Under the pieces are notes generated by a model. The model was not told the origin of the DNA. It made no database searches and worked only from the letters and a program-made list of their open reading frames with translations. A DNA stretch of 14,099 nt from NCBI GenBank assembly GCA_040752415.1, contig JBFMGU010000270.1, forward strand, positions 1 to 14,099. Direction: 5' to 3'. This DNA is from Myxococcota bacterium. GTDB taxonomy: Bacteria; Myxococcota; JACRCW01. Below, piece after piece: positions 2 through 13,679 of the stretch (position 1 is the first letter of the stretch; each line of letters begins with the position of its first letter). The position numbers and the translations under genes were made by a program.

Positions 2-1177
2 CCGGGGCGCGACGGGGGCGGACGGGGCGGCACCATTGGGCGCCACCAGCGGAACTGGCGCGCTCATCACCGGTGCGTTGGCCGCGTTGAGGTCCGCTTC
101 CGTGGCAGGCTGCGCGCGTCCGCCCGGCGTGGGTGCCGCCGGCGCAATCCGCATGGTTCCCCGACGAGGTGCCTCCGCGATGGTGGCCGCGTTGTTGGTC
201 TGCGCGGCGCGCGGATGCTCCAGGAAGGCCTTCCACGTCTCCGCGAGCTCCTGCGCGGTCTGGTAGCGCTGGTCGCGGTTCTTGTGGAGGGCCTTGAGGA
301 TGATGGCCTCCACCTCCGCGCTGATGTTGAGGTCCGGTCGCGCCTGACGAGGTGGAACCGGCGCCTCCATGATGTGCTTGGTCACAATCCCGACGGCGGT
401 CTCCGCCTTGAACGGGATGTCCCCGGTGACCAGCTGGTACATGAGAACGCCGAGCGCGTAGATGTCGCTGCGCGGGTCCAGGCTCTCTCCGCGCGCCTGC
501 TCCGGGCTCATGTACTCCGGTGTGCCGCACACCATGCCCTGCTGCGTGAGCGCGCGACCTTCCTCCCCAGACGGGTCCTGGATCTTGGCAATGCCGAAGT
601 CCAGCACCTTCACGTAGTCCTTATGGTCGCGACGATCCTCGACCATGATGTTCTCGGGCTTGATGTCGCGGTGGATGATGTTCTGCTCGTGCGCTTCCGC
701 CAGCGCGGAGCACACCTGCACCATGATGCGACCCAGCCGCTCCTCCGGCAGCGGGAAGTCCTCCTGCAACACCGTGAACAGGTCACGACCGTGGAGCAGC
801 TCCATGGCCATGAACAGCGTGCCGTCCTCCGACTGGCCGAAGTCGATGATGGAGATGGAGTTGGGGTGGTTGAGGCGGGACGCGGCGCGGGCCTCCCGCT
901 GGAAGCGCTGGACCAGCTGCTGGTCGTCATTGAAATGCGGGTGCAGGATCTTGAGCACCACCGGCTTGTCCAGGCTCATCTGGCGCGCCTTGTAGACGCG
1001 GCCCATGCCGCCGGTGCCGAGCAGGCTCTCCACCCGGAAGTTGCGCGCAATGACCTTGCCGATGAGCGGGTCCGCGTCCTCGACCTTGGTGTGGGTCACC
1101 GTGGAGCCGCAGTTGGGGCAGAAGCGCGCGCCGGCGGCGACCTCGGACTGGCAGTTGGTGCAGAGCGTTGCGGACAT
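2..1177 (-). CDS. Ser/Thr protein kinase (Hanks type) with N-terminal zinc ribbon; 3' end runs off the window
   Basis: Absent from the ORF track because it has no stop in the window; translated by hand from ATG at 1177. MSATLCTNCQSEVAAGARFCPNCG (two CxxC), then LLGTGGMGRVY, VVLKIL, RFQREARAASRLNHPN, HRDIKPENIM, VKVLDFGIAK, GTPEYMSPEQ, SDIYALG, followed by a Pro/Ala-rich linker to the window edge. Confidence 0.96.
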   Translation of the reverse strand, partial: MSATLCTNCQSEVAAGARFCPNCGSTVTHTKVEDADPLIGKVIARNFRVESLLGTGGMGRVYKARQMSLDKPVVLKILHPHFNDDQQLVQRFQREARAASRLNHPNSISIIDFGQSEDGTLFMAMELLHGRDLFTVLQEDFPLPEERLGRIMVQVCSALAEAHEQNIIHRDIKPENIMVEDRRDHKDYVKVLDFGIAKIQDPSGEEGRALTQQGMVCGTPEYMSPEQARGESLDPRSDIYALGVLMYQLVTGDIPFKAETAVGIVTKHIMEAPVPPRQARPDLNISAEVEAIILKALHKNRDQRYQTAQELAETWKAFLEHPRAAQTNNAATIAEAPRRGTMRIAPAAPTPGGRAQPATEADLNAANAPVMSAPVPLVAPNGAAPSAPVAPR

Positions 1178-1188
1178 TGGAAGCGCGC

Positions 1189-1218
1189 ACTCTATCCCCG
1201 TGCGGAACGCGCCCTCAA
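1189..1218 (-). promoter_or_regulatory. Candidate sigma70-type promoter for the kinase gene
   Basis: Minus strand TTGAGG (1218-1213), 18-nt spacer, TAGAGT (1194-1189), ending 11 nt before the ATG. No Shine-Dalgarno sequence in between. Confidence 0.4.
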
Positions 1219-2615
1219 CTGCTCCGGCGGGGCTTCCTCGTCGGGCGCTTGGGCGCGGCCTGGGCCTGCCGGGCGGGGAGGAACCCGTGGCGCCGCATCA
1301 TGGCCCGCAGCGTGCTCCCGGGATCCGCCGCCATGCCCCGTCCCACCGTGCCGAGGAGGCGCGCCGCCCGGGCAGCGTTGCCGGAAGCGCGGGCCAGTGC
1401 CGCCTGCAGCGCCTTGCGCTCCAGCTCATCCACCGCCTCCCGCAGGTCCATCCGCCCCGCGTCCAGGAGCCGCTCCAACGCCGCGGTGTTGATGAGACCG
1501 CCGTCGTCCGTTGGGGGGGCGGCGCCCAGGATGCGTCGAGGGAGGTCCGCGAGCATCAGCTGACCGCCGCCCCGTTTGTAGACCAATGCCTCGAACACCA
1601 CGTTGCGCAGCTCGCGGATGTTGCCGGGCCAGGGGTGGTCGGTGAGGGCGGCCAGGGCCTCTTGGGTGATCTCGGTGACGGGGGTGCGGCCGGGTTGCGG
1701 GCCGGTCTCCGCCTGGAAACGCGCCATGAAGTGACGGGCCAGCGCCGGGATGTCCTCGCGTCGGGCGCGCAACGGGGGGAGCTCCACGGTGACAATGGCA
1801 AGGCGCTCGTAGAAGTCCGCGCCGAAGCTTCCGGAGGCGATGAGCGTGCGCAGGTCCCGGTTGGTGGCGGCGAGCAGTCGGAAATCCACGCGGTGCGGTG
1901 TGCTCTCCCCCAGCCGCGTGACGACGTGATCCTCCAGCACGCGCAGCAGCTTGACCTGCGTGGACACGGGCGTGTCGTCGATCTCATCCAGGAAGACCGT
2001 GCCGCCTTCCGCCGCCATCAACCATCCGTCAAAGCCCTTCACCGCGCCGGAGAACGCGCCGCGCGCGTAACCAAAGAGCTCCGCCTCCATGAGCTCATTG
2101 GGAATGGCCGCGCAGTTGATGGGGACAAAGCGACGCTCCGTGCGGGGCGACCACGCATGCAACAGACGCGCGCACAGCTCCTTGCCGGTGCCGGTCTCGC
2201 CGGTGAGGAGGACGGGCATGGACGTGCGCGCCGCCCGCGCCAGCTGCGCCAGCACCTTCCGCGCCGCCGCGCTCTCCGCGATGAATCCCGGTGGCACGGG
2301 AGGCGGTGTCTCGGCGTCGACGAGCTCGCGCAGGCGCAGGGCGAGGCGGTGGGTGGCGTCGGGGGCGGGCAGGGAGATGACGTCGTAGGCGCCGCGCAGC
2401 ACGGCCTCCCGTTGCACGGTCACCGGCAGTCTGCTCTCGCTCAGCCACAACCACGGAACCCCATCACCCACGACGGCAGGCACCTGCGCTCCCGACGTGC
2501 GCACCACCCGCAGCGTGGGGCGAGCGTGGCGTTGGTGCAGCGTGACTCCCAGCGCGAGCAGCGGCTCCGCCAGCCTTCCGCGCGGCAACGCGCCACGCCA
2601 TTCCACGTCCGCCAT
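1215..2615 (-). CDS. Sigma54-dependent enhancer-binding protein (NtrC/Fis family AAA+) with degenerate receiver-like N-terminus
   Basis: Walker A GETGTGKE, INCAAIP, ELFGYARGAFSGA (GAFTGA loop variant), Walker B FLDEID, QVKLLRVL, AATNRDL, WPGNIRELRN and a C-terminal Fis-type HTH (GNAARAARLLG). Start placed at ATG 2615 (MADVEW); the ORF-track start at 2651 is a non-ATG codon inside the palindromic sites. Confidence 0.95.
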   Translation of the reverse strand: MADVEWRGALPRGRLAEPLLALGVTLHQRHARPTLRVVRTSGAQVPAVVGDGVPWLWLSESRLPVTVQREAVLRGAYDVISLPAPDATHRLALRLRELVDAETPPPVPPGFIAESAAARKVLAQLARAARTSMPVLLTGETGTGKELCARLLHAWSPRTERRFVPINCAAIPNELMEAELFGYARGAFSGAVKGFDGWLMAAEGGTVFLDEIDDTPVSTQVKLLRVLEDHVVTRLGESTPHRVDFRLLAATNRDLRTLIASGSFGADFYERLAIVTVELPPLRARREDIPALARHFMARFQAETGPQPGRTPVTEITQEALAALTDHPWPGNIRELRNVVFEALVYKRGGGQLMLADLPRRILGAAPPTDDGGLINTAALERLLDAGRMDLREAVDELERKALQAALARASGNAARAARLLGTVGRGMAADPGSTLRAMMRRHGFLPARQAQAAPKRPTRKPRRSS

Positions 2616-2617
2616 GC

Positions 2618-2656
2618 CGTGAATCAAATCATGGCCACCGCGTGAATACAATCACG
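2618..2656. promoter_or_regulatory. Tandem palindromic protein-binding sites, CGTGA-N6-TCA(C/T)G x2 (candidate EBP enhancer/operator)
   Basis: CGTGA-ATCAAA-TCATG (2618-2633) and CGTGA-ATACAA-TCACG (2641-2656), 23 bp apart, 16/19 identical when extended to the trailing GCC. AT-rich spacers in GC-rich DNA. Confidence 0.7.
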
Positions 2657-2696
2657 GCCGCGCTGGTCCCGACGAGACGAAACGCTGGGAAATCAG

Positions 2697-4037
2697 TCAC
2701 TTGGCTCCTGGCAGGGCGCATGCACATTCGGTGCGCCATGACGCCGGGCAGTTCTTCCTCCCGGCAGGAGCGTTCCCATGTGGGTCCTGGGGACCGGGAT
2801 GACCCGCGCGCACCCAGGCCTCAAGCAGCGCCACGTCCTCGGGCGACAACGCGGGAAGACCCATGGGCATGCCGGGAGGCTCCGACGGGCGGGCGGCGCG
2901 GTGGTCGCGCAGGTCGTCGTGGCCGGGGAGGATGCGGTCACGTTGGGCCTCCACGTGACGGATGTGCACGCGCTCCAGCAGCACCGGCTCCCCGCTCGCG
3001 CCCGGGCGGAAGATGGACTGACGACGTCCGGAGGCGGTGCGGGAGCCACGCGTCACGTCGCGGTACGAGGAGAAGGAGAGGCCCACCGCGGGATAGCCGA
3101 AGCCGCCGCTGTTGCCTGGGCCTCCGTCGCCACCGGAGAGGGCGGGGTCCATGTGGCAGTGGATGCAGACGCGCGAGAAGATGCGCTCGTCGACCGCTTT
3201 CCAGGTCACCGGCCCCGATGGCGGAGGCGCGTTGTCGACGGGAAACGCAGGGGCGGGGGTGCCGGGTTCGCCGTACAGGATGAAGCACGCAAGCGCGAGC
3301 GCGTCGGCTTCCGACAGGGCAACGGCAGGCATGAGCGTGTCCGGCTTCAGGGACTGCGGCGCGCGAATCCACGTCGTCAGGAGCTCGGGGCGCATGCGGT
3401 CACGCGTGTGACGCAGGTCTGGCGCGAGCGCACGGCCAGGGTTGCGCGAGAATGTGAATTGTTCCGGGCCGGCGGTGACGAAGACGCGGTTGCCGAAGAG
3501 ATGACAAGCCACGCAGCCCTTCTCCTCGAAGAGCGCCGCGCCGCGGGTGACGAGCGCGTCCTCCCGTGGAGGTACCGGTCCCGGGATGGTGGGGGTGTTG
3601 CGCGTGAGGAAGGCCACCACGTCGTCGACGGTGCGGTCGTTCCAGCCGGGGCGGGGCATGGACTCCGAGAGGGTGGGGCGCAGGTCGTAGGGGTTCCGCA
3701 GGTAGGCGCGCAGCCAGTCTCGTCGGAAACGGCCCAGGCCGCGCAGGCTGGGCACGCCCACCGTGTAATGTCCCGTCGACACGCGTTGGACGTGACGGTC
3801 CCACAGCGGAAAGGACTCACGCGCCTCCGCGGCAGCGTCGTCGTTGGCGGCGGTCCGCACGATCCACTGGTGGCACCGCACGCACGCCGCATCCTGTGGA
3901 ACCGCGCGCACGCCATCGACGTCATGACAGCGCGTGCACTGCGCCTTCTCCACCGCCGCGCGACCCCGCGTCACGTCGCCACGAGCCAACACCACGCCGG
4001 GAAGCAGCGCGAGCAGCAGCGGCAGGAGCGCCTTCAT
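2697..4037 (-). CDS. Exported multiheme (4 x CxxCH) c-type cytochrome
   Basis: Signal peptide MKALLPLLLALLPGVVLA. Heme motifs CTRCH, CVRCH, CVACH, CIHCH. Class I cytochrome c-like segments with candidate axial Met: YLRNP..LRP...ESMP, WIRAPQSLKPDTLMP, PPGMPMG. Confidence 0.92.
   Translation of the reverse strand: MKALLPLLLALLPGVVLARGDVTRGRAAVEKAQCTRCHDVDGVRAVPQDAACVRCHQWIVRTAANDDAAAEARESFPLWDRHVQRVSTGHYTVGVPSLRGLGRFRRDWLRAYLRNPYDLRPTLSESMPRPGWNDRTVDDVVAFLTRNTPTIPGPVPPREDALVTRGAALFEEKGCVACHLFGNRVFVTAGPEQFTFSRNPGRALAPDLRHTRDRMRPELLTTWIRAPQSLKPDTLMPAVALSEADALALACFILYGEPGTPAPAFPVDNAPPPSGPVTWKAVDERIFSRVCIHCHMDPALSGGDGGPGNSGGFGYPAVGLSFSSYRDVTRGSRTASGRRQSIFRPGASGEPVLLERVHIRHVEAQRDRILPGHDDLRDHRAARPSEPPGMPMGLPALSPEDVALLEAWVRAGHPGPQDPHGNAPAGRKNCPASWRTECACALPGAK
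2708..2724 (+). promoter_or_regulatory. Candidate sigma54 (-24/-12) promoter, divergent from the EBP gene
   Basis: CTGGCAGGGCGCATGCA versus consensus YTGGCACG-N4-TTGCW: GG(2710-2711)-N10-GC(2722-2723), two mismatches. Predicted +1 near 2735, about 80-115 bp downstream of the tandem sites. Confidence 0.6.
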
Positions 4038-4045
4038 CGTCGTGG

Positions 4046-4663
4046 TCAGCCGTTCACGCGGACGGCGGCGCGACTGCGCTCCAGTTCACCCAACACCTTG
4101 CGCGCCTCCTGGTGCTTGGGCCGACGCGCGAGCACCTGGCGCACCGTCCGCTCCGCTGCGTCGGGAGACCCTTCCGCGAGCTCCAGTCGCGCCAACGTGA
4201 CCATGCCCTGCGGCGAAAGGGATTCACTCGCGATGAGCGGCTGCAGCTCGGCGCGCGCTTCCGCCAGGCGGCCCAGCGCGAGCAACGCGGCCGCGCGGGT
4301 CTCCTTCACCGTCGGAGTGGTGTCGGCGTCCTGAAGGTAGGAGAGCGTGCCGTTGACGTCGCCCAGCTGCCACGCTGCGAGGCCGGCAATGCGGGAGGCG
4401 CGCTGGCGGTCGGCGGGCTTCAGGGGTGGGCTGAAATAGGACAGGGTGGGATCCTGCTTGGGCGTGTCCAACACCGCGCGCGCCATCTTGAGCGCCGCCA
4501 CCGGCTTCCCCTGCGCCAGGAGCTTCTCCGCGCGGTCCACGCGCTGCGCCAGCGTCATCACGCCCATGGAACGACGCGGCATGGGGCAGGCCGCCACATC
4601 CACGACGGAAAGGGTGACGGCGCCCACCAACAGACCCGACCAGATCATCGTCCGGAAACCCAT
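4046..4663 (-). CDS. Exported tetratricopeptide-repeat protein (possible lipoprotein)
   Basis: GGAGGG just before ATG 4663. Hydrophobic N-terminus ending VAAC. TPR-like helices (AAALLALGRLAEARAEL, LARLELAEGSPDAAERTVRQVLARRPKHQEA). Ends 8 nt before the cytochrome start. Confidence 0.8.
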   Translation of the reverse strand: MGFRTMIWSGLLVGAVTLSVVDVAACPMPRRSMGVMTLAQRVDRAEKLLAQGKPVAALKMARAVLDTPKQDPTLSYFSPPLKPADRQRASRIAGLAAWQLGDVNGTLSYLQDADTTPTVKETRAAALLALGRLAEARAELQPLIASESLSPQGMVTLARLELAEGSPDAAERTVRQVLARRPKHQEARKVLGELERSRAAVRVNG

Positions 4664-4842
4664 GGAACCCTCCGAGGGTGCCAGCCTGGCGACCCACACC
4701 GCTGCCAACGGCCCACGCGCCCGAAGGATCTGACAACGCTCGCGCCCATGTTGTTCCGCCGGGCGGCTTGACGGGAGCGCCACCGCGCGGTTTCCATGTC
4801 CGGCCCGCGCGTTGGGACGCAGGCGGAACCCAGGACGAAAAC

Positions 4843-6067
4843 GTGGCCCGGATTGCGGTGGCGGATGACGACCAGCAGTTGCGCAGCGTCCTGGTGCGAC
4901 TGCTGAAGCAGAAAGGCCACGACGTCACCCCGTTCCCCGACGGAGGCGCGGCGCTGCAGGGCGTGCGACCGGGTGGCTACGAGCTGCTCATCACCGACGT
5001 GGAAATGCCCAACATGGACGGGGTCAACCTGACGCGCGCGCTGCGCCAGACGTTCACCAAGTCCCAGCTGCCCATCATCATCCTGAGCGGGCTGGAGGCC
5101 GAGGACGACATCCTGCGCGGCTACGACGCCGGCGCCAACGACTACCTGGTGAAGCCCTACAAGGCGCCCATCCTGCACGCGAAGGTGGCGCTCCTGTTGC
5201 GCGAGCGCGAGGCGCAGGGCGGGGCGAACATCTCGCTGGCTCCGTCGGGCGCGCAGGGCCCGCGGCTGCCGTTCACGTTTGACAAGTACACCGTGGAGCA
5301 GGAGCTGGGGCGCGGCGGGATGAGCGTGGTGTACCGCGCGGTGCGTCGCAGTGACGGGAAGATGGTGGCGCTCAAGATGTTCGAGCCCGACGTCACCGCG
5401 GACCGCCAGGGCCTGGCGCGCTACTTCCGGGAGATTGCCGCGCTGAGCACCATCTCGTCGGAGCGCGTGGTGAGCGTGGTGGATTCCGGCTTCGAGCAGG
5501 GGCGCTACTTCCTGGCCATGGATTACCTGGAAGGACGTTCCGCCAAGGCCATCCTCCTCGATGAAGGCCCGTTCCCCGAGCGGCGCGTGGTGCAGGTGGG
5601 CCGCGACGTGGTGGACGCTTTGCAGGCGCTGCGTGGGCAGGGGCTGGTGCACCGCGACATCAAGCCGGCGAACATCATGATCCGTCGTGACGGGCGCAGC
5701 ACGCTGGTGGACCTGGGGCTGGCCAAGAGCCAGAAGGATGACGACGTCACCGGCTCCGACGCGGTGCTGGGCACGCCGCAGTACCTGGCGCCCGAGCTGC
5801 TGCGCGGCATGATGGCCAGCGTGGCCAGCGACGTGTATTCGCTGGGCGTGACGCTCTATGAGCTGCTCAGCGGCCAGAAGCCGTACGCGGGACTGGCGGC
5901 CAGCGCGGTGGTGCAGAACAAGCTGGCGGGGAAGAAGCCCCCGACGCTGCGTGAGGTGCAGAGCGGGGTGAGCGCGCCGGTGGCGTCGTTGGTGGGCCAG
6001 ATGATGGAGCTGGACCCGGACCGCCGCCTGCGCGATCTCGACGAGCTGCAGGAAGCGTTGGAAGAGA

Positions 6068-6081
<14 letters not shown>
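4843..6081 (+). CDS. Receiver (REC) domain-Ser/Thr protein kinase fusion
   Basis: GTG start after AGGA. REC motifs IAVADDD, LITDVEMPNMDG, IIILSG, GANDYLVKP. Kinase motifs LGRGGMSVVY, VALK, HRDIKPANIM, DLGLAK, GTPQYLAPE, SDVYSLG. No TM segment. Stop overlaps the ppdK end convergently (6068-6081). Confidence 0.95.
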
Positions 6082-8750: not shown

Positions 8751-11507
8751 TCAGGGCCTGCGACGTCGCACGAGCAGGGCGGCGAGCGCAAGCACCATGA
8801 CTCCCGTGGGCAGTCCGTGCTGGACCGCGGTGCTGCTGCAGCCGTTGGACGACCTTGTCGTCGTGGAAGCCTGGTCCTTGACCGGGAGCGTGCCCACCTC
8901 GCCGGTGCGCATGATGGGACGCTTCTTGGCGCGCTCACCCAACGTGGAGAGGGCCACGTGACCGGCCTGGTCGCGCGCCTCCACCTCGATGAACGCGTCA
9001 GCCGCGACGTCATCCAGGTCCACGCTGCGCTCCGTCTCGCCGTCGACGTCGATCCACGCGATGTCATTCACGCGGTAGCGGACGTGGATGTCCTCGGGCT
9101 CGGCCACGCGGTCCCAGACGATGATGCGCAGCGTGTCGTCGGTGCGGGAGACCTGGAGGCGGGGGGCTTCGGCGTCGCTGAGCACGGGGATGATGACCGG
9201 CGTCTCGTCGAGCGTGCCTGGCGCGTCCACCACGCGGCTGCGCACCTGGATGGTGTGGGCGCCCTGGAGGTTCAGCTCCACGTCGGAAACCACGAGCTCG
9301 GTGCCCTGGCGGTACGGGTGCCACAGGCCGTTGTCCACGCGGTAGCTGTGCTCCACCGGCGTGTTGCCGGGCGCCGCGCTGTCGACGCGCAGGATGGCCT
9401 TGATGCGCTTGCGCGCCGCGCCGTTGCTGACGCTCATCTCCGCCGGCGTGGGAATCTCCATGCGCTCCAGCGACGCCACCGTCTGCACCCGCAGCGTGCT
9501 GGCGTTGGCGGCTGCCGCGTCGAAGGCGAGGTCCGCGAACACGCCGAGGAACTCGTAGCGGGTGTGACCGAACGCGGTGGTGCCAAACCCGTTCTCCATG
9601 CCCTTGAAGCGCACGCGCTGCAGCTCGAAGCCACGCATGCTGGGCAGGTCAAAGGTCTGGTCCAGGTCCGGGGCGAACTGCGGGAGGAACGCGGCCAACA
9701 GCTCCGGCACCGCCTGCGCAATCTCCTCCTCGGTCTGGTTGAGGGCGTCCGCGTTGCGCGCGCGCACCTCACGCAGCCAGGTGTCGACGGGATTGGCGAT
9801 GACGTGCACCTGGCCCTGCCCGTTGATCTCCAGGCCCAGCCCCACGGCGAGGTCGACGTTGAGGGTGACCAGCCGGACGTAGCGATCCTCGACGAGGACG
9901 TAGATGTTGATGTCCAGGTTGGGCACCGAGAGCGTCAGCAGCGGCTGGTCCAGGATGGTGCGCGTGGGGTCGTCGGGGTCGGGCGCGGTGGTGCCCAGGC
10001 CAATCTGCGCTTCCGGTGGCTCGCGCGGACGCAGCTCCATGATGGCGGGGCGCGGCGCGGGATTGGGCTCGTTGTAGAGCGCGGCCATGGCGTCGCCCTC
10101 GCCCAGCAGCAGTCCCACGATGCCGCTGTTGATGAGTCCCACGCGGTAGCTGCTGATCTCCTGGCAGAGCAGGCCGGCGCTGTAGGCCTCACCGAGCATC
10201 TCGCCGAGGAGCGCGTCGTGCGCGGCCATGCCCACCATGTACGTGCTGGCGGAGCCGCCGTTGGCGGGGGCCACGGTGGCGGGGAAATCAAAGCTGGAGA
10301 CGTTGATGGGGCCGCCGTTGCGCGGGGGAACGCACGGGTTGTCGTCGGCGTTGGCGCCGCCCACCAGACCCACGTTGAGCCCGTTGTTGCTGAAGTGCGC
10401 CGCGTTGGCGCCACCCTCACGCGTGCCACCTGCAAAGACGCTGAACTGCACGTCACCGTTGCCGGCGAGGAAGCTGGGCAGGTTGGCAGCGAGGTCCACC
10501 TGTCCCTCGACGCCGAGGAGGCCGGGGATGGGCGCCTCGTTCCCGTCGGTGAAATGGCACTTGCCGTCGGTGTAGCAGAGGCTCTCCCACACGCCGGGCT
10601 TGGCGGGGCACTGGTAGCCGGACGCGTAGGGCGTGCAGGCCTGCGTGCGCACGGGGTCCAGCGCCTCATTGAGGGCGTCCTTGAGCGTGGTGCCCAGGTC
10701 CCCCGCGAAGCTGCCGACGATCCAGTCCTTCACGAACCCGATGTCGGCGATGTCGCAGGAGAAGCCGCCGTCGATGGTGATGTCATCCCCGCTGAAGGGC
10801 ACGTCGACGCTGGTGACCTCGAAGGTGGCGCGGTCCGTGCGCGGCTCCCGCCCGACGGTGAGCTTGCCGGTGACGGTGCGGTTCTCGATGTGCGGGTACA
10901 CCGTGCAATTGGTCTCGAAGTACCACCACGGGTCGTAGCGGATCTTGATGCCGTTGGGATCCGGGGGAGAGCTCAGGTCCACGACGACACGGATGTCCAT
11001 GGTGCTGGCCGTGGCGGGGACGAGCTGGGTGGTCTTCAGCGTGGCGTAGACGATGCAGTTCCAGTAGTTGGCGCCAATCTCCTCGGTGCAGATGTCGGTG
11101 TCCTCCCCGTCGGAGGGCGGGATGCGGAAGCCCAGCTTGGGGTCCGCGTTGGGCGCGTTGTGACAGACCTTGGGGTTGTCCAGGTTGCACGCGGGATTGG
11201 CGGCGGGGCAGCTGTCGCAGGTCTCACCGTCGGGGCAGCGGCAGGTCTGGCCGGAGGCGCAGGGCATGCCGGTGGCGCCGTCGCAGGCGGTCTGCATGAA
11301 CGCGCTGACGACGGTGGGAAGCTTCTGGCCAATGAAGCTGAAGCCCTCCGGCGTGATGCGCGCCTGCACGAGCTGGTCGGTCCGTTTGTCCTCGGGGAAG
11401 GGCCCGGTGAGGGGCTCAACGCAGGAGCAGGAAGTGGCACCGCAACGGGCCAGCAGGATGGCAGCAACGGCAGCCTGCCAGGCACGACGGTGGAGGGCAC
11501 GAACCAT
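8751..11507 (-). CDS. Large Cys-rich surface lipoprotein with MYXO-CTERM-like sorting tail; possible BPI/LBP-like fold plus Ig-like domains
   Basis: GGAGG before ATG 11507. Signal-like MVRALHRRAWQAAVAAILLARC-GATSCSC. C-terminus SSNGCSS...GVMVLALAALLVRRRRP (GC motif, TM helix, Arg cluster). Beta-rich C-terminal segments HSYRVDNG.W, GAHTIQVRSR, IEVEARDQAG. Confidence 0.85.
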   Translation of the reverse strand: MVRALHRRAWQAAVAAILLARCGATSCSCVEPLTGPFPEDKRTDQLVQARITPEGFSFIGQKLPTVVSAFMQTACDGATGMPCASGQTCRCPDGETCDSCPAANPACNLDNPKVCHNAPNADPKLGFRIPPSDGEDTDICTEEIGANYWNCIVYATLKTTQLVPATASTMDIRVVVDLSSPPDPNGIKIRYDPWWYFETNCTVYPHIENRTVTGKLTVGREPRTDRATFEVTSVDVPFSGDDITIDGGFSCDIADIGFVKDWIVGSFAGDLGTTLKDALNEALDPVRTQACTPYASGYQCPAKPGVWESLCYTDGKCHFTDGNEAPIPGLLGVEGQVDLAANLPSFLAGNGDVQFSVFAGGTREGGANAAHFSNNGLNVGLVGGANADDNPCVPPRNGGPINVSSFDFPATVAPANGGSASTYMVGMAAHDALLGEMLGEAYSAGLLCQEISSYRVGLINSGIVGLLLGEGDAMAALYNEPNPAPRPAIMELRPREPPEAQIGLGTTAPDPDDPTRTILDQPLLTLSVPNLDINIYVLVEDRYVRLVTLNVDLAVGLGLEINGQGQVHVIANPVDTWLREVRARNADALNQTEEEIAQAVPELLAAFLPQFAPDLDQTFDLPSMRGFELQRVRFKGMENGFGTTAFGHTRYEFLGVFADLAFDAAAANASTLRVQTVASLERMEIPTPAEMSVSNGAARKRIKAILRVDSAAPGNTPVEHSYRVDNGLWHPYRQGTELVVSDVELNLQGAHTIQVRSRVVDAPGTLDETPVIIPVLSDAEAPRLQVSRTDDTLRIIVWDRVAEPEDIHVRYRVNDIAWIDVDGETERSVDLDDVAADAFIEVEARDQAGHVALSTLGERAKKRPIMRTGEVGTLPVKDQASTTTRSSNGCSSTAVQHGLPTGVMVLALAALLVRRRRP

Positions 11508-11636
11508 GGGGCCTCCCAAGACGGGGACCCACGGATCTTTAGCCGCCCCCGGGCGCCAAGGCCATGGCTGGGCGACGGATGGAGGGGACGGGACAACCGA
11601 GTGGAGCGCGGGAGATCCGGGGGTACGCGCCGCGGT

Positions 11637-11927
11637 TCACGGGCGGCTGGGAGCCACCGCTTGACGACGGGCGAAGGGCAGACCCAGCCCGGCAATGATG
11701 CCCCACACCGTGCCAAACACCAGCGCGATGACCAGGGCGTGCCAGTCGGTCACCTCGACGAGGGCACCGCGGATCAGCGCGGCCACCGTGCCCGCCGTGG
11801 CGTAGGTGCACAGCGACGGGATGCGCAGCGTGGAGCGCTCCGCCAGCCGACGGCCCATCCGCACCGTGACGTGGCGCGCGAGCAACCCCGCCGCGAGCAT
11901 GACCGTGAGCTTGATGACCCAATCCAT
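11637..11927 (-). CDS. Small hypothetical membrane protein (~3 TM)
   Basis: 96 aa, ATG preceded by GAGG, three hydrophobic stretches, fills the gap in the same orientation as its neighbours. Confidence 0.7.
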   Translation of the reverse strand: MDWVIKLTVMLAAGLLARHVTVRMGRRLAERSTLRIPSLCTYATAGTVAALIRGALVEVTDWHALVIALVFGTVWGIIAGLGLPFARRQAVAPSRP

Positions 11928-11977
11928 GGGCCTCGAGTTACCCCAACGCCGCGGAGGTTGCCATCACGGAACGCGGG

Positions 11978-12226
11978 TCAGCGGCGTCCGCCGTGATAGC
12001 CCACCAGGAAGGCCAGCGCGCTCCAGAGCAGCGTCCCGACGTAGAGGCCCGCCTTGTCGCGCCAGGCGGTGTGGGAGAACACGTCGCTGAGCGTGGCCCA
12101 GAGGCTGCGGATGGCGTCGAGGTGGAAGTAGGCGGGCAGGGTGAGCCCGACGAGGATCAGCGCCCAGAGCGCCAGGACGAACGCCGCGCCACGCAGGAGG
12201 CGTCGCCACGAGGGAAGAAGCTTCAT
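11978..12226 (-). CDS. Small hypothetical membrane protein (2 TM), coupled to larE
   Basis: 82 aa, basic N-terminus then two hydrophobic segments. Start overlaps the larE stop (ATGA at 12226-12223). Confidence 0.75.
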   Translation of the reverse strand: MKLLPSWRRLLRGAAFVLALWALILVGLTLPAYFHLDAIRSLWATLSDVFSHTAWRDKAGLYVGTLLWSALAFLVGYHGGRR

Positions 12227-13080
12227 CCACCCAGCACGGTGAGTCGCGGACGGCCCGAGGCGCGGTTGGCACCGCCCTGACGGTAGCCATCCAGGTCCAC
12301 CGTCACCTGTGTGAAACCCGCCTCGCGCACGCCGGCCACCGCCGCTTCACGCACCTTCTCGTCGAGCAGGCGCGGCAGCTCGTCGACGGCAACCTCGATG
12401 CGCGCGAGGTCACCGTGGTAGCGCACGCGCACCTGCACGAAACCGAGCTGTCGCAGCGCGAATTCCGCGCGGCCCACCTGGCCCAGCTTCTCCGCCGTGA
12501 TGGCGGTGCCGTGTGGGAAGCGGCTGGAGAGGCACGCCAGCGCGGGTTTGTGCGCGGAGGGAAGCCCGTACAGCTCGGCCACGGCGCGCACCAACGGCTT
12601 GCTGAGCCCGGCGGTGATGAGCGGCGCCTGGATGCCACGTTCACGCGCGGCGGTGTGGCCGGGACGGTCGTCGCCGAGGTCGTCGAGATTGGCGCCGTAG
12701 GCAACGTGCTTCAGTCCACGACGGGCCTTGAACGCATCACACGCGTCGAACAGTGCGCTCTTGCAGAAGTAGCAGCGGTTGGTGGGATTGGCGGCGTAGC
12801 GCGGGTCCTCCACCTCGTGCGTGTCGACGAGAACGAGCTCCGCGCCGATGCGCCGCGCACCCTCGCGTGCATCGTCGTATTCCCACTGCGGGTAGCTGGG
12901 GGAGATGGCCAACAGCCCCACGGCGCGCGGCCCCAGGGCCCGGTGCGCGGCCGCGAGCAGCACCGCGCTGTCGACGCCACCGGAGTACGCCACCACCGCG
13001 GATTCCAACGCCGCGCACGCCTCCTCCAGGCGCTGTGCGGCCTCCCGGGCGTCCATTCCACGCAATGCCGTGCTGGTCAT
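12223..13080 (-). CDS. larE: LarE-family ATP-dependent sulfur transferase (PP-loop), CxxC...C type
   Basis: PP-loop AYSGGVDS, YAANPTNRCYFCK, GANLDDLGDDRPG..AA.E, KPALACLSSRFP.G, AE..LRQLGF.QVRVRYHG..ARIE, GF..VTVDLDGYRQG. Confidence 0.95.
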   Translation of the reverse strand: MTSTALRGMDAREAAQRLEEACAALESAVVAYSGGVDSAVLLAAAHRALGPRAVGLLAISPSYPQWEYDDAREGARRIGAELVLVDTHEVEDPRYAANPTNRCYFCKSALFDACDAFKARRGLKHVAYGANLDDLGDDRPGHTAARERGIQAPLITAGLSKPLVRAVAELYGLPSAHKPALACLSSRFPHGTAITAEKLGQVGRAEFALRQLGFVQVRVRYHGDLARIEVAVDELPRLLDEKVREAAVAGVREAGFTQVTVDLDGYRQGGANRASGRPRLTVLGG

Positions 13081-13571
13081 GGCTGCTCCACCTTCGTCGT
13101 CGGAAGTTCCACCTTGTGCGGGTGGAAGCTGCCCGCGTCATAACGGAACAGGTTGGCCTCCACCGGCTTGCCGTCGCGCGTCCCGACCACGAGGTAGTCC
13201 ACGCCGGGGAAACGGGGTGCGCCGTCCCAGAGCGCCTGCGCCACGTCCTCGTCGCTGAAGTAGGCGCCCACGTCGATGTGCGAGTGGTAGATGACCCGCT
13301 CCACCTGCCCCTGCTCCTTTGCCTTCTCGAGGAGACGGAGGTGCTGCATGTCATTGAAGCGGTACGCGGTGCGGGAGGTGCGGGGGAACTGCACGGGGTC
13401 CAGCTGGTGGTAGCGGTCCTGCACGTTGTCCATGCGCTCGGTGGCCACCGCCACGTCGGGAGCGTCGGCTTGGGCGAGGAGGATGCCGCACACTTCCGAG
13501 GGATAACCCTCGATGACGTGCTGGAGCACACGTGCGAGCACCGGTTCAGGAATGCGGAAGACCTGCGACAT
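13077..13571 (-). CDS. JAMM/MPN+ (Mov34, M67 family) zinc metallopeptidase, Mec-like
   Basis: YPSEVCGILL and YHSHIDVGAYFSDED match the JAMM motif E...HxH-x7-S-x2-D. GAGGG before ATG 13571. Stop overlaps the larE start (ATGA at 13080-13077). Confidence 0.93.
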   Translation of the reverse strand: MSQVFRIPEPVLARVLQHVIEGYPSEVCGILLAQADAPDVAVATERMDNVQDRYHQLDPVQFPRTSRTAYRFNDMQHLRLLEKAKEQGQVERVIYHSHIDVGAYFSDEDVAQALWDGAPRFPGVDYLVVGTRDGKPVEANLFRYDAGSFHPHKVELPTTKVEQP

Positions 13572-13679
13572 GGGCAACCCTCGGGGAAGGCCCTCTTAGC
13601 GCAACGCCAGGGCGAGCGCAGCCCGTGATGACCCGCATGCAGCGGTAGCCGCGTGACGACGTGGGGACCCCCGCGCGTG

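What the first reader, a model, noticed from the sequence alone, without database searches (positions are those of the whole stretch)
2618..2800. Complete sigma54 enhancer-promoter module firing antisense into the cytochrome c gene
Seen: two palindromic sites (2618-2656) abut the EBP start. A near-consensus -24/-12 element (2708-2724) lies on the plus strand, followed by a hairpin GCCGGG-N11-CCCGGC (2743-2765) with a pyrimidine-rich loop, then AGGAG 7 nt before ATG 2778. All of this from 2697 onward overlaps the 3' end of the minus-strand cytochrome gene. Known: EBPs usually bind tandem sites ~80-150 bp upstream of a sigma54 promoter, often one divergent from their own gene, and sigma54-linked sRNAs exist (M. 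xanthus Pxr lies beside the EBP gene nla19). Inference: the EBP drives either (a) a structured sRNA or antisense RNA against the TPR-cytochrome transcript, or (b) a promoter and RBS orphaned by deletion of the original target gene.
Basis: partly seen in the sequence, partly recalled or inferred. Interest (0 to 1): 0.78.

Follow-up and report, generated by a model that had tools for sequence, protein, structure and literature searches.

The report
Orphaned sigma-54 promoter, target gene lost
This is a genuine, intact sigma-54 promoter with its activator's binding sites and ribosome-binding site; in relatives it sits directly in front of a membrane-scaffold (SPFH) gene, and here that gene was likely deleted, so the promoter is most likely a leftover pointing into a neighbouring cytochrome gene rather than a purpose-built small or antisense RNA gene.

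Summary
Orthologous activators (EBPs) carry the same layout: tandem sites abutting the EBP start, -24/-12 box 71-111 bp away, leader hairpin, SD, ATG. In 54 of 85 distinct loci it fronts a divergent SPFH/band-7 gene; two front an OmpA/ABC operon. A DNA profile of those intergenic regions aligns to window 2613-2789 without a break (E 8e-10) and stops where the cytochrome's conserved end begins. No ortholog of either target is found in this 96.8%-complete genome. Option (a), a discrete sRNA, is not supported: no Rfam/Pxr match, no terminator, no unusual fold. The module shows no decay, so a recent loss is likely but a repurposed antisense switch (~12%) or misassembly (~8%) is not excluded. By-product: a widespread EBP-to-SPFH sigma-54 regulon with a predicted binding motif that my paper searches did not find described.

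The parts
1215..2615 (-). sigma-54 enhancer-binding protein (466 aa): degenerate receiver-like N-terminus, AAA+ domain with GAFSGA loop, Fis-type HTH
   Evidence: Pfam PF00158 E 5e-59, PF02954 E 1.5e-5; Walker A/B, sensor II and loop as in most of 120 listed homologs; N-terminal 110 aa has no Pfam/NCBIfam hit, receiver-like by predicted structure only
2618..2633 (.). predicted EBP binding site 1 (palindrome), 3 nt from the EBP start codon
   Evidence: 20.0 bits on the ortholog-derived motif
2641..2656 (.). predicted EBP binding site 2 (palindrome), 23 bp from site 1
   Evidence: 17.1 bits; pair score 37.1 is the best in the genome and is reached by only 2 of 84 orthologous loci
2709..2724 (+). 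sigma-54 -24/-12 element (GG 2710-2711, GC 2722-2723); start of transcription predicted near 2735 from the usual 12-nt spacing (recalled rule)
   Evidence: 23.4 bits core score, reached by 3 of 54 SPFH-linked orthologs; rpoN present in genome
2743..2765 (+). 5' leader hairpin immediately before the SD
   Evidence: -13.5 kcal/mol; similar placement in 26 of 28 long orthologous leaders
2766..2780 (+). AGGAG Shine-Dalgarno and ATG, likely those of the lost target gene
   Evidence: aligns to the AGGAG and ATG columns of the ortholog profile; GC-to-ATG 54 nt, orthologs 27-56 nt in 51 of 52
2781..2789 (.). inferred junction between the promoter module and the cytochrome gene
   Evidence: ortholog profile alignment ends at 2789; conserved cytochrome GHPGP begins at 2790 upward; no repeat of this stretch elsewhere in the genome
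2697..4037 (-). multiheme c-type cytochrome gene; conserved part ends at 2790, codons 417-446 (2697-2789) are likely read-through over the promoter
   Evidence: PF00034/PF13442; closest homologs keep GHPGP then a different tail; tail lacks the GC3 bias (0.65 vs 0.85)
2778..4334 (+). 518-codon frame opened by the orphan ATG, in register antisense to the cytochrome gene; most likely a shadow frame
   Evidence: no Pfam hit at E 0.1; GC1 0.84 > GC3 0.74; 1482 of 3082 long gene-like ORFs of this genome have an equally open in-register antisense frame

Best explanation
The stretch is the intact divergent control region of a conserved EBP-to-SPFH sigma-54 module whose target gene was likely deleted in this lineage, leaving promoter, leader, SD and ATG fused to the 3' end of a convergent cytochrome c gene, where it is probably a functionless relic. 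In the ancestral state the EBP would bind the two palindromes, activate sigma-54 polymerase at 2709-2724 about 87-110 bp away, and transcribe an SPFH (flotillin-like membrane scaffold) mRNA; because the sites abut its own start codon and persist where the promoter is gone, the EBP is inferred to repress its own gene too. The deletion is inferred to have started within ~10 nt after the ATG and to have removed the cytochrome's own stop codon, so the cytochrome frame now runs 30 codons through the promoter to a chance stop at 2697. If the EBP is still activated, the promoter would fire an unterminated antisense transcript into the cytochrome-TPR operon as a by-product. Shown: the elements, their homology to target-bearing loci, absence of the target in the assembly, position of the junction. 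Inferred: binding, activation, autoregulation, the deletion event, lack of present function.
For: EBP orthologs in 52 of 400 sampled phylum genomes and 298 metagenome stretches, 80 kept. Of 129 loci examined, 41 were dropped for short upstream sequence and 3 as duplicates; of the 85 left, 54 have SPFH directly divergent, 12 further away, 19 (incl. window) none in the sequence held; SPFH identity PF01145 E 2e-22. A promoter of >=10 bits lies 55-125 nt from the EBP start in 53 loci (46+3+4); apart from the window, 51 of the other 52 have a divergent gene behind it (SPFH 46 plus L211; small gene then SPFH L098, L099; OmpA/ABC operon L085, L179); L110 is a doubtful match inside an ORF. Profile alignment 2613-2789, 40.4 bits, E 8e-10 against the whole genome. 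SPFH ortholog not found in the genome: search at E 1e-5 empty, tblastn best E 3e-4, 50-sequence profile best E 0.004 on a paralog, while orthologs are 50-80% identical to each other; OmpA-type target hits only the generic OmpA domain. The four closest cytochrome homologs keep GHPGP, three of them then an S-x-Y/F-G tail that the window lacks. Loss or displacement of the target recurs on the EBP tree (no-SPFH label needs at least 9 changes, quick tree), often leaving a co-directional gene ending 37-160 nt before the EBP start with sites kept, the state this locus is approaching.
Against: No decay: sites and promoter score among the best of all orthologs, which needs either a recent deletion or continued selection. 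The genome is an incomplete assembly (96.8%, 520 contigs), so absence of SPFH is not proof. Cytochrome tails of 0-43 residues occur naturally, and some more distant homologs have a P-x-G-R tail resembling window codons 424-427, so the junction could lie near 2757 and the SD/ATG be chance (0.26% strict, 5.5% loose SD); SD-ATG profile score is modest (8.0 bits, lower quartile). The window's EBP has no well-supported sister on the tree, so the lost target could have been the OmpA/ABC type or another gene. No close relative with the pre-deletion layout was found.
Confidence: 0.75

Rival explanations
1. Same origin, but the orphaned module has been co-opted: the EBP would now drive antisense transcription or transcriptional interference against the TPR-cytochrome operon (which reads co-directionally into the EBP gene 81 bp away), possibly reaching the plus-strand receiver-kinase gene near 4843 or translating the 518-codon antisense frame.
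For: All elements intact and top-scoring; no other site+promoter pair of comparable score in the genome, so this is the EBP's only strong predicted output; EBP motifs intact; no terminator-like site in 2500-4800; intragenic sigma-54 sites facing against their gene are known and some act as promoters (PMC3844500, passages seen).
Against: Not seen in any other of the 85 loci; none of the 26 other cytochrome loci was seen ending in such a promoter in the 120 nt downstream (read by eye); in promoter-less orthologs the -24/-12 box is simply lost; the open antisense frame is what 48% of long genes here have; recent deletion explains intactness equally well.
Confidence: 0.12
2. Assembly artefact: two real loci (EBP with its SPFH target; cytochrome operon with its own stop) were joined at ~2785 and the SPFH gene was left out of the bin.
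For: Single fragmented assembly (520 contigs); perfectly preserved module ending abruptly; no reads could be examined.
Against: No repeat covering the junction elsewhere in the genome (blastn); SPFH ortholog absent from all 520 contigs; no N or contig end near the junction; target loss is common in this family.
Confidence: 0.08
3. A discrete Pxr-like or other structured sigma-54 sRNA is transcribed from ~2735.
For: Hairpin with a pyrimidine-rich loop; EBP-adjacent sigma-54 ncRNAs exist (pxr, PMC5568312; DVU2359 target, PMC4641369; passages seen).
Against: No Rfam match of note at E<=10 in 2500-3100 (4 chance hits below gathering score); Pxr model finds nothing in this genome but does in both control myxobacteria; no terminator; fold z +0.34 and +0.63 for ~130 nt; in orthologs the same position is an mRNA leader of 23-67 nt with variable hairpin sequence.
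Confidence: 0.04

Closest known systems
One-component EBPs divergently transcribed from their sigma-54 target promoter (six cases in Desulfovibrio vulgaris; PMC4641369, passages seen)
   Same: EBP gene back to back with a -24/-12 promoter, binding sites in the shared intergenic region, GAFSGA listed there as a tolerated loop variant (also PMC6615313, one passage seen).
   Different: Different EBP family and target (SPFH/band-7); here the target is missing and a convergent gene overlaps the promoter.
PspF-pspA phage-shock module of E. coli (PMC7229158, passages seen; divergent layout recalled)
   Same: Works like it in outline: sigma-54 activator that negatively autoregulates and drives a membrane-stress protein; here autoregulation is inferred from site position and persistence.
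   Different: Target is SPFH not PspA; this EBP has a ~110-aa receiver-like N-terminus (PspF lacks a regulatory domain, recalled); no inhibition by the target tested.
Pxr sRNA of Myxococcus xanthus (Rfam RF01812; PMC5568312, passages seen)
   Same: Predicted sigma-54 promoter next to an EBP gene in a myxobacterium.
   Different: pxr is downstream of nla19 and folds into three stem-loops; this element is divergent, has one hairpin, carries SD+ATG, and does not match the model.
Intragenic antisense sigma-54 sites of Salmonella (PMC3844500, passages seen)
   Same: A sigma-54 site inside a coding sequence facing against it, with possible interference or antisense effect.
   Different: Those lack a known dedicated enhancer; this one has its cognate sites and EBP and demonstrably derives from an intergenic promoter.

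Membership tests
sigma-54 enhancer-promoter of a divergent EBP | GG-N10-GC (-24/-12) element | tested here: met
   GG 2710-2711, GC 2722-2723; top 4 of 22.0 M positions on ortholog profile
sigma-54 enhancer-promoter of a divergent EBP | upstream palindromic activator sites about 80-150 bp from the start | tested here: met
   site centres ~87 and ~110 bp from predicted +1; motif conserved beside orthologs, period 20-23 bp in 82 of 84
sigma-54 enhancer-promoter of a divergent EBP | cognate EBP with AAA+ sigma-54 domain, GAFTGA-type loop and HTH; rpoN in genome | tested here: met
   loop is GAFSGA in 114 of 120 listed homologs
sigma-54 enhancer-promoter of a divergent EBP | a target gene or RNA behind the promoter | tested here: not met
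   target of orthologs absent; convergent cytochrome gene instead
sigma-54 enhancer-promoter of a divergent EBP | EBP binding and rpoN-dependent transcription | not testable with these tools
   needs EMSA/footprint and 5' mapping
Pxr sRNA (RF01812) | match to the covariance model | tested here: not met
   (0 in own genome; both control genomes positive)
Pxr sRNA (RF01812) | located downstream of nla19, triple stem-loop | tested here: not met
   element is upstream and divergent of the EBP; one hairpin
sigma-54-dependent stand-alone sRNA | intrinsic terminator and stable conserved fold, no translation signals | tested here: not met
   0 terminators, fold z +0.34, SD+ATG aligned with orthologous mRNA starts
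PspF-pspA module | target is PspA/IM30; activator without N-terminal regulatory domain (recalled) | tested here: not met
   orthologous target is PF01145; 110-aa N-terminal domain present
PspF-pspA module | negative autoregulation by the activator | tested here: inconclusive
   sites 2-3 nt from the EBP ATG in 58 of 84 loci and kept in promoter-less loci (median 22-27 bits; profile was built from these same loci)

The most novel reading that the evidence does not exclude
A deletion has rewired a complete membrane-stress sigma-54 switch onto the antisense strand of a cytochrome c operon, and the cell now uses it: the EBP silences the TPR-cytochrome (and its own co-transcribed gene) by antisense transcription, while the inherited SD and ATG feed a 518-codon overprinted frame, a regulated proto-gene born in one step.
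Probability: 0.12. Interest if true: 0.65.

Novelty: new member of a known kind. Interest (0 to 1): 0.27.

Why it matters
As it stands it is a clear snapshot of regulon decay: promoter capture by a neighbouring gene's read-through tail. The more useful product is the regulon it came from: a GAFSGA, pseudo-receiver EBP family (1063 proteins at E<=1e-100) tied to an SPFH/flotillin-like gene, with a predicted palindromic motif and duplicated sites where the genes separate. Three paper searches listed no paper on that pairing; subscription journals and supplements were not searched, so it may be described elsewhere. It would give a direct handle on what signal induces these bacterial SPFH scaffolds. 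If the antisense reading were true it would show a regulated antisense switch and a proto-gene arising from a single deletion.

Tried and rejected
Rfam scan of 2500-3100: only chance hits. The search for related loci with the whole EBP returned generic EBPs at 35-50% identity and was not used; a C-terminal alignment was used instead. Sequencing runs: none was listed, so read support and expression could not be examined; this is no evidence either way. Earlier findings near this place or by sequence: nothing. Synteny with the nearest relatives: G001-G003 lack the EBP, the cytochrome and the receiver-kinase with these queries; G001 has the kinase ortholog with a PPDK-like gene (38% identical) about 0.8 kb upstream and none of the intervening block, suggestive of a lineage-specific block but not informative on the deletion. 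The 518-aa plus-strand ORF as a real conserved gene: rejected. A second strong target elsewhere in the genome: none. An anti-SD switch in the leader (CU-rich loop next to AGGAG; cf. bioRxiv 10.1101/086108, abstract and section list only) was considered; the MFE keeps the GC hairpin and loops vary among orthologs, so not pursued. The careful EBP tree did not finish; only the quick tree was read.

Full report
Observation. The window is contig C191 of an 11.0-Mb, 520-contig, 96.8%-complete genome; homolog names point to the myxobacteria. The cytochrome ORF as called ends at 2697. The sites are well beyond chance (3 matches vs 0.09 expected; the strict form occurs only here in the genome). The simple box pattern is weak alone (33 of 200 shuffles) but strong on an ortholog-derived profile (4 of 22.0 million positions). 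The hairpin is unremarkable (z -1.2 to -1.7).

What it is. The EBP (PF00158, PF02954) belongs to a large family (1063 proteins at E<=1e-100; 52 of 400 sampled phylum genomes). I gathered 129 loci (48 of the 52 genome hits plus the window, and 80 metagenome loci), dropped 41 with too little upstream DNA and 3 duplicates. In the remaining 85 the layout is fixed: two palindromic sites, 20-23 bp apart in 82 of 84 and 2-3 nt from the EBP ATG in 58 of 84; a -24/-12 box 71-111 nt from the ATG; then a leader, SD and ATG 27-56 nt after the GC in 51 of 52 measured. The window's values, 95 and 54 nt, fall inside. In 54 loci the gene behind it is an SPFH/band-7 protein (PF01145; one of these, L106, has a short truncated ORF in between), a 55th (L211) shows an SPFH-like start at a contig end, and two (L085, L179) have an OmpA-domain substrate-binding protein, heading an ABC operon in L085. 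Twelve have SPFH further off; 16 incl. the window have none of these in the 0.3-3.5 kb held. Of 52 other loci with a promoter of >=10 bits, 51 have a divergent gene behind it; the window does not.

A DNA profile built from 52 SPFH-linked intergenic regions aligns to the window continuously from 2613 to 2789, through both sites, the box, the leader, AGGAG and ATG (40.4 bits; E 8e-10 against the genome), and then stops. From the other side, the cytochrome's conservation with its four closest homologs (51-60% identical) ends at GHPGP, codon 416, whose last base is 2790; three of them continue with a shared S-x-Y/F-G tail that the window lacks. The window's last 30 codons lose the GC3 bias (0.65 vs 0.85). 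The two homologies meet within about ten bases. The SPFH ortholog is not found in the genome by three searches, although the genome has seven other band-7 matches; the OmpA-type target gives only generic OmpA-domain hits. A caveat: more distant cytochrome homologs have a P-x-G-R tail like window codons 424-427, which would put the junction near 2757 and make SD/ATG coincidental; I weigh this low because a strict AGGAG-ATG in the right window arises 0.26% of the time (5.5% for a loose SD) and the closest homologs lack that tail, but the SD-ATG profile score is only 8.0 bits.

How it likely works. Parent module (inferred from comparison and from general knowledge of sigma-54 activators): the EBP, with a degenerate receiver-like N-terminus (predicted-structure similarity only) and a GAFSGA loop (114 of 120 listed homologs; described as a tolerated variant in PMC4641369 and PMC6615313, passages seen), binds the tandem sites and activates sigma-54 polymerase (rpoN present) to transcribe the SPFH gene. 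The sites persist beside the EBP start where the promoter is gone (median 22-27 bits, profile not independent of these loci), and where genes intervene the SPFH promoter carries its own site about 55 nt upstream in 8-9 of 12 cases, which argues for autorepression plus activation. In this genome the target was likely deleted from just after its ATG to just before the cytochrome stop codon. Predicted consequences: the cytochrome gains a 30-residue read-through tail; TPR-cytochrome now lies 81 bp upstream of, and co-directional with, the EBP, with no terminator-like site between; an activated EBP would produce unterminated antisense RNA. Target loss recurs across the family (at least 9 changes forced on the quick tree), commonly ending with a co-directional gene stopping 37-160 nt before the EBP start and no promoter. 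The window looks like an early stage of that path.

Rivals. The module is not decayed: only 2 of 84 orthologs match its site score and 3 of 54 its promoter score, and it is the EBP's only strong predicted target in the genome (43.4 bits vs 25.1). That fits a recent deletion, but also selection on an antisense role (about 0.12). The 518-codon frame from ATG 2778 is in register antisense to the cytochrome, has shadow-frame composition, no Pfam hit, and 1482 of 3082 long genes here have such an open frame. Misassembly (about 0.08) cannot be tested without reads; no repeat covers the junction. A discrete sRNA (about 0.04) fails every test available: Rfam, Pxr model, terminator, fold; leader hairpins are usual here (26 of 28 long leaders, 18.9 expected; these loci are related, so not independent).

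Comparison and novelty. It works like the divergent one-component EBP regulons described for Desulfovibrio (PMC4641369) and, in outline, like PspF-pspA (PMC7229158, passages on autoregulation seen). It is not Pxr, which lies downstream of nla19 (PMC5568312). The orphaned promoter is an ordinary evolutionary relic. The EBP-SPFH regulon and its motif were not found in three searches of the open library (listings and abstract starts only); closed journals and supplements were not seen.

Noticed in passing
L081, L083-L110, L138-L235 (EBP orthologs): A widespread sigma-54 regulon: GAFSGA EBP divergent from an SPFH/band-7 gene, with a palindromic motif (C-N3-A-T-T-N2-A-A-T-N3-G) in tandem at the EBP start; not found in my paper searches.
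   Followed up: partly
L227, L231, L234, L228, L224, L110, L219, L220, L101: Where genes separate EBP and SPFH, a site reappears about 55 nt upstream of the SPFH promoter while the pair at the EBP start remains.
   Followed up: partly
L085/L236:5509-9999 and L179: The same module fronts an OmpA-domain substrate-binding protein instead of SPFH, followed in L236 by a permease-like gene and an ABC ATPase: a target swap.
   Followed up: partly
window 1215-2615: The family has F-G-x-D-L/F-Y-E-R-L where typical EBPs have an arginine in second place (typical form recalled); the later arginine is kept.
   Followed up: no
window 1177-6081 vs G001 L253:12890-17921: In the nearest relative a PPDK-like gene lies about 0.8 kb upstream of the kinase ortholog with none of the EBP, cytochrome, TPR or receiver-kinase genes between; the block may be lineage-specific.
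   Followed up: partly
window 8751-13577: MYXO-CTERM protein (922 aa, no Pfam hit), LarE-type sulfur transferase and a JAB-domain protein in a minus-strand run with pyruvate phosphate dikinase.
   Followed up: no
window ~4843-6081 (+): Receiver domain fused to a Ser/Thr kinase, on the same strand as the orphan promoter 2.1 kb downstream; not found in G001-G003 with this query.
   Followed up: no
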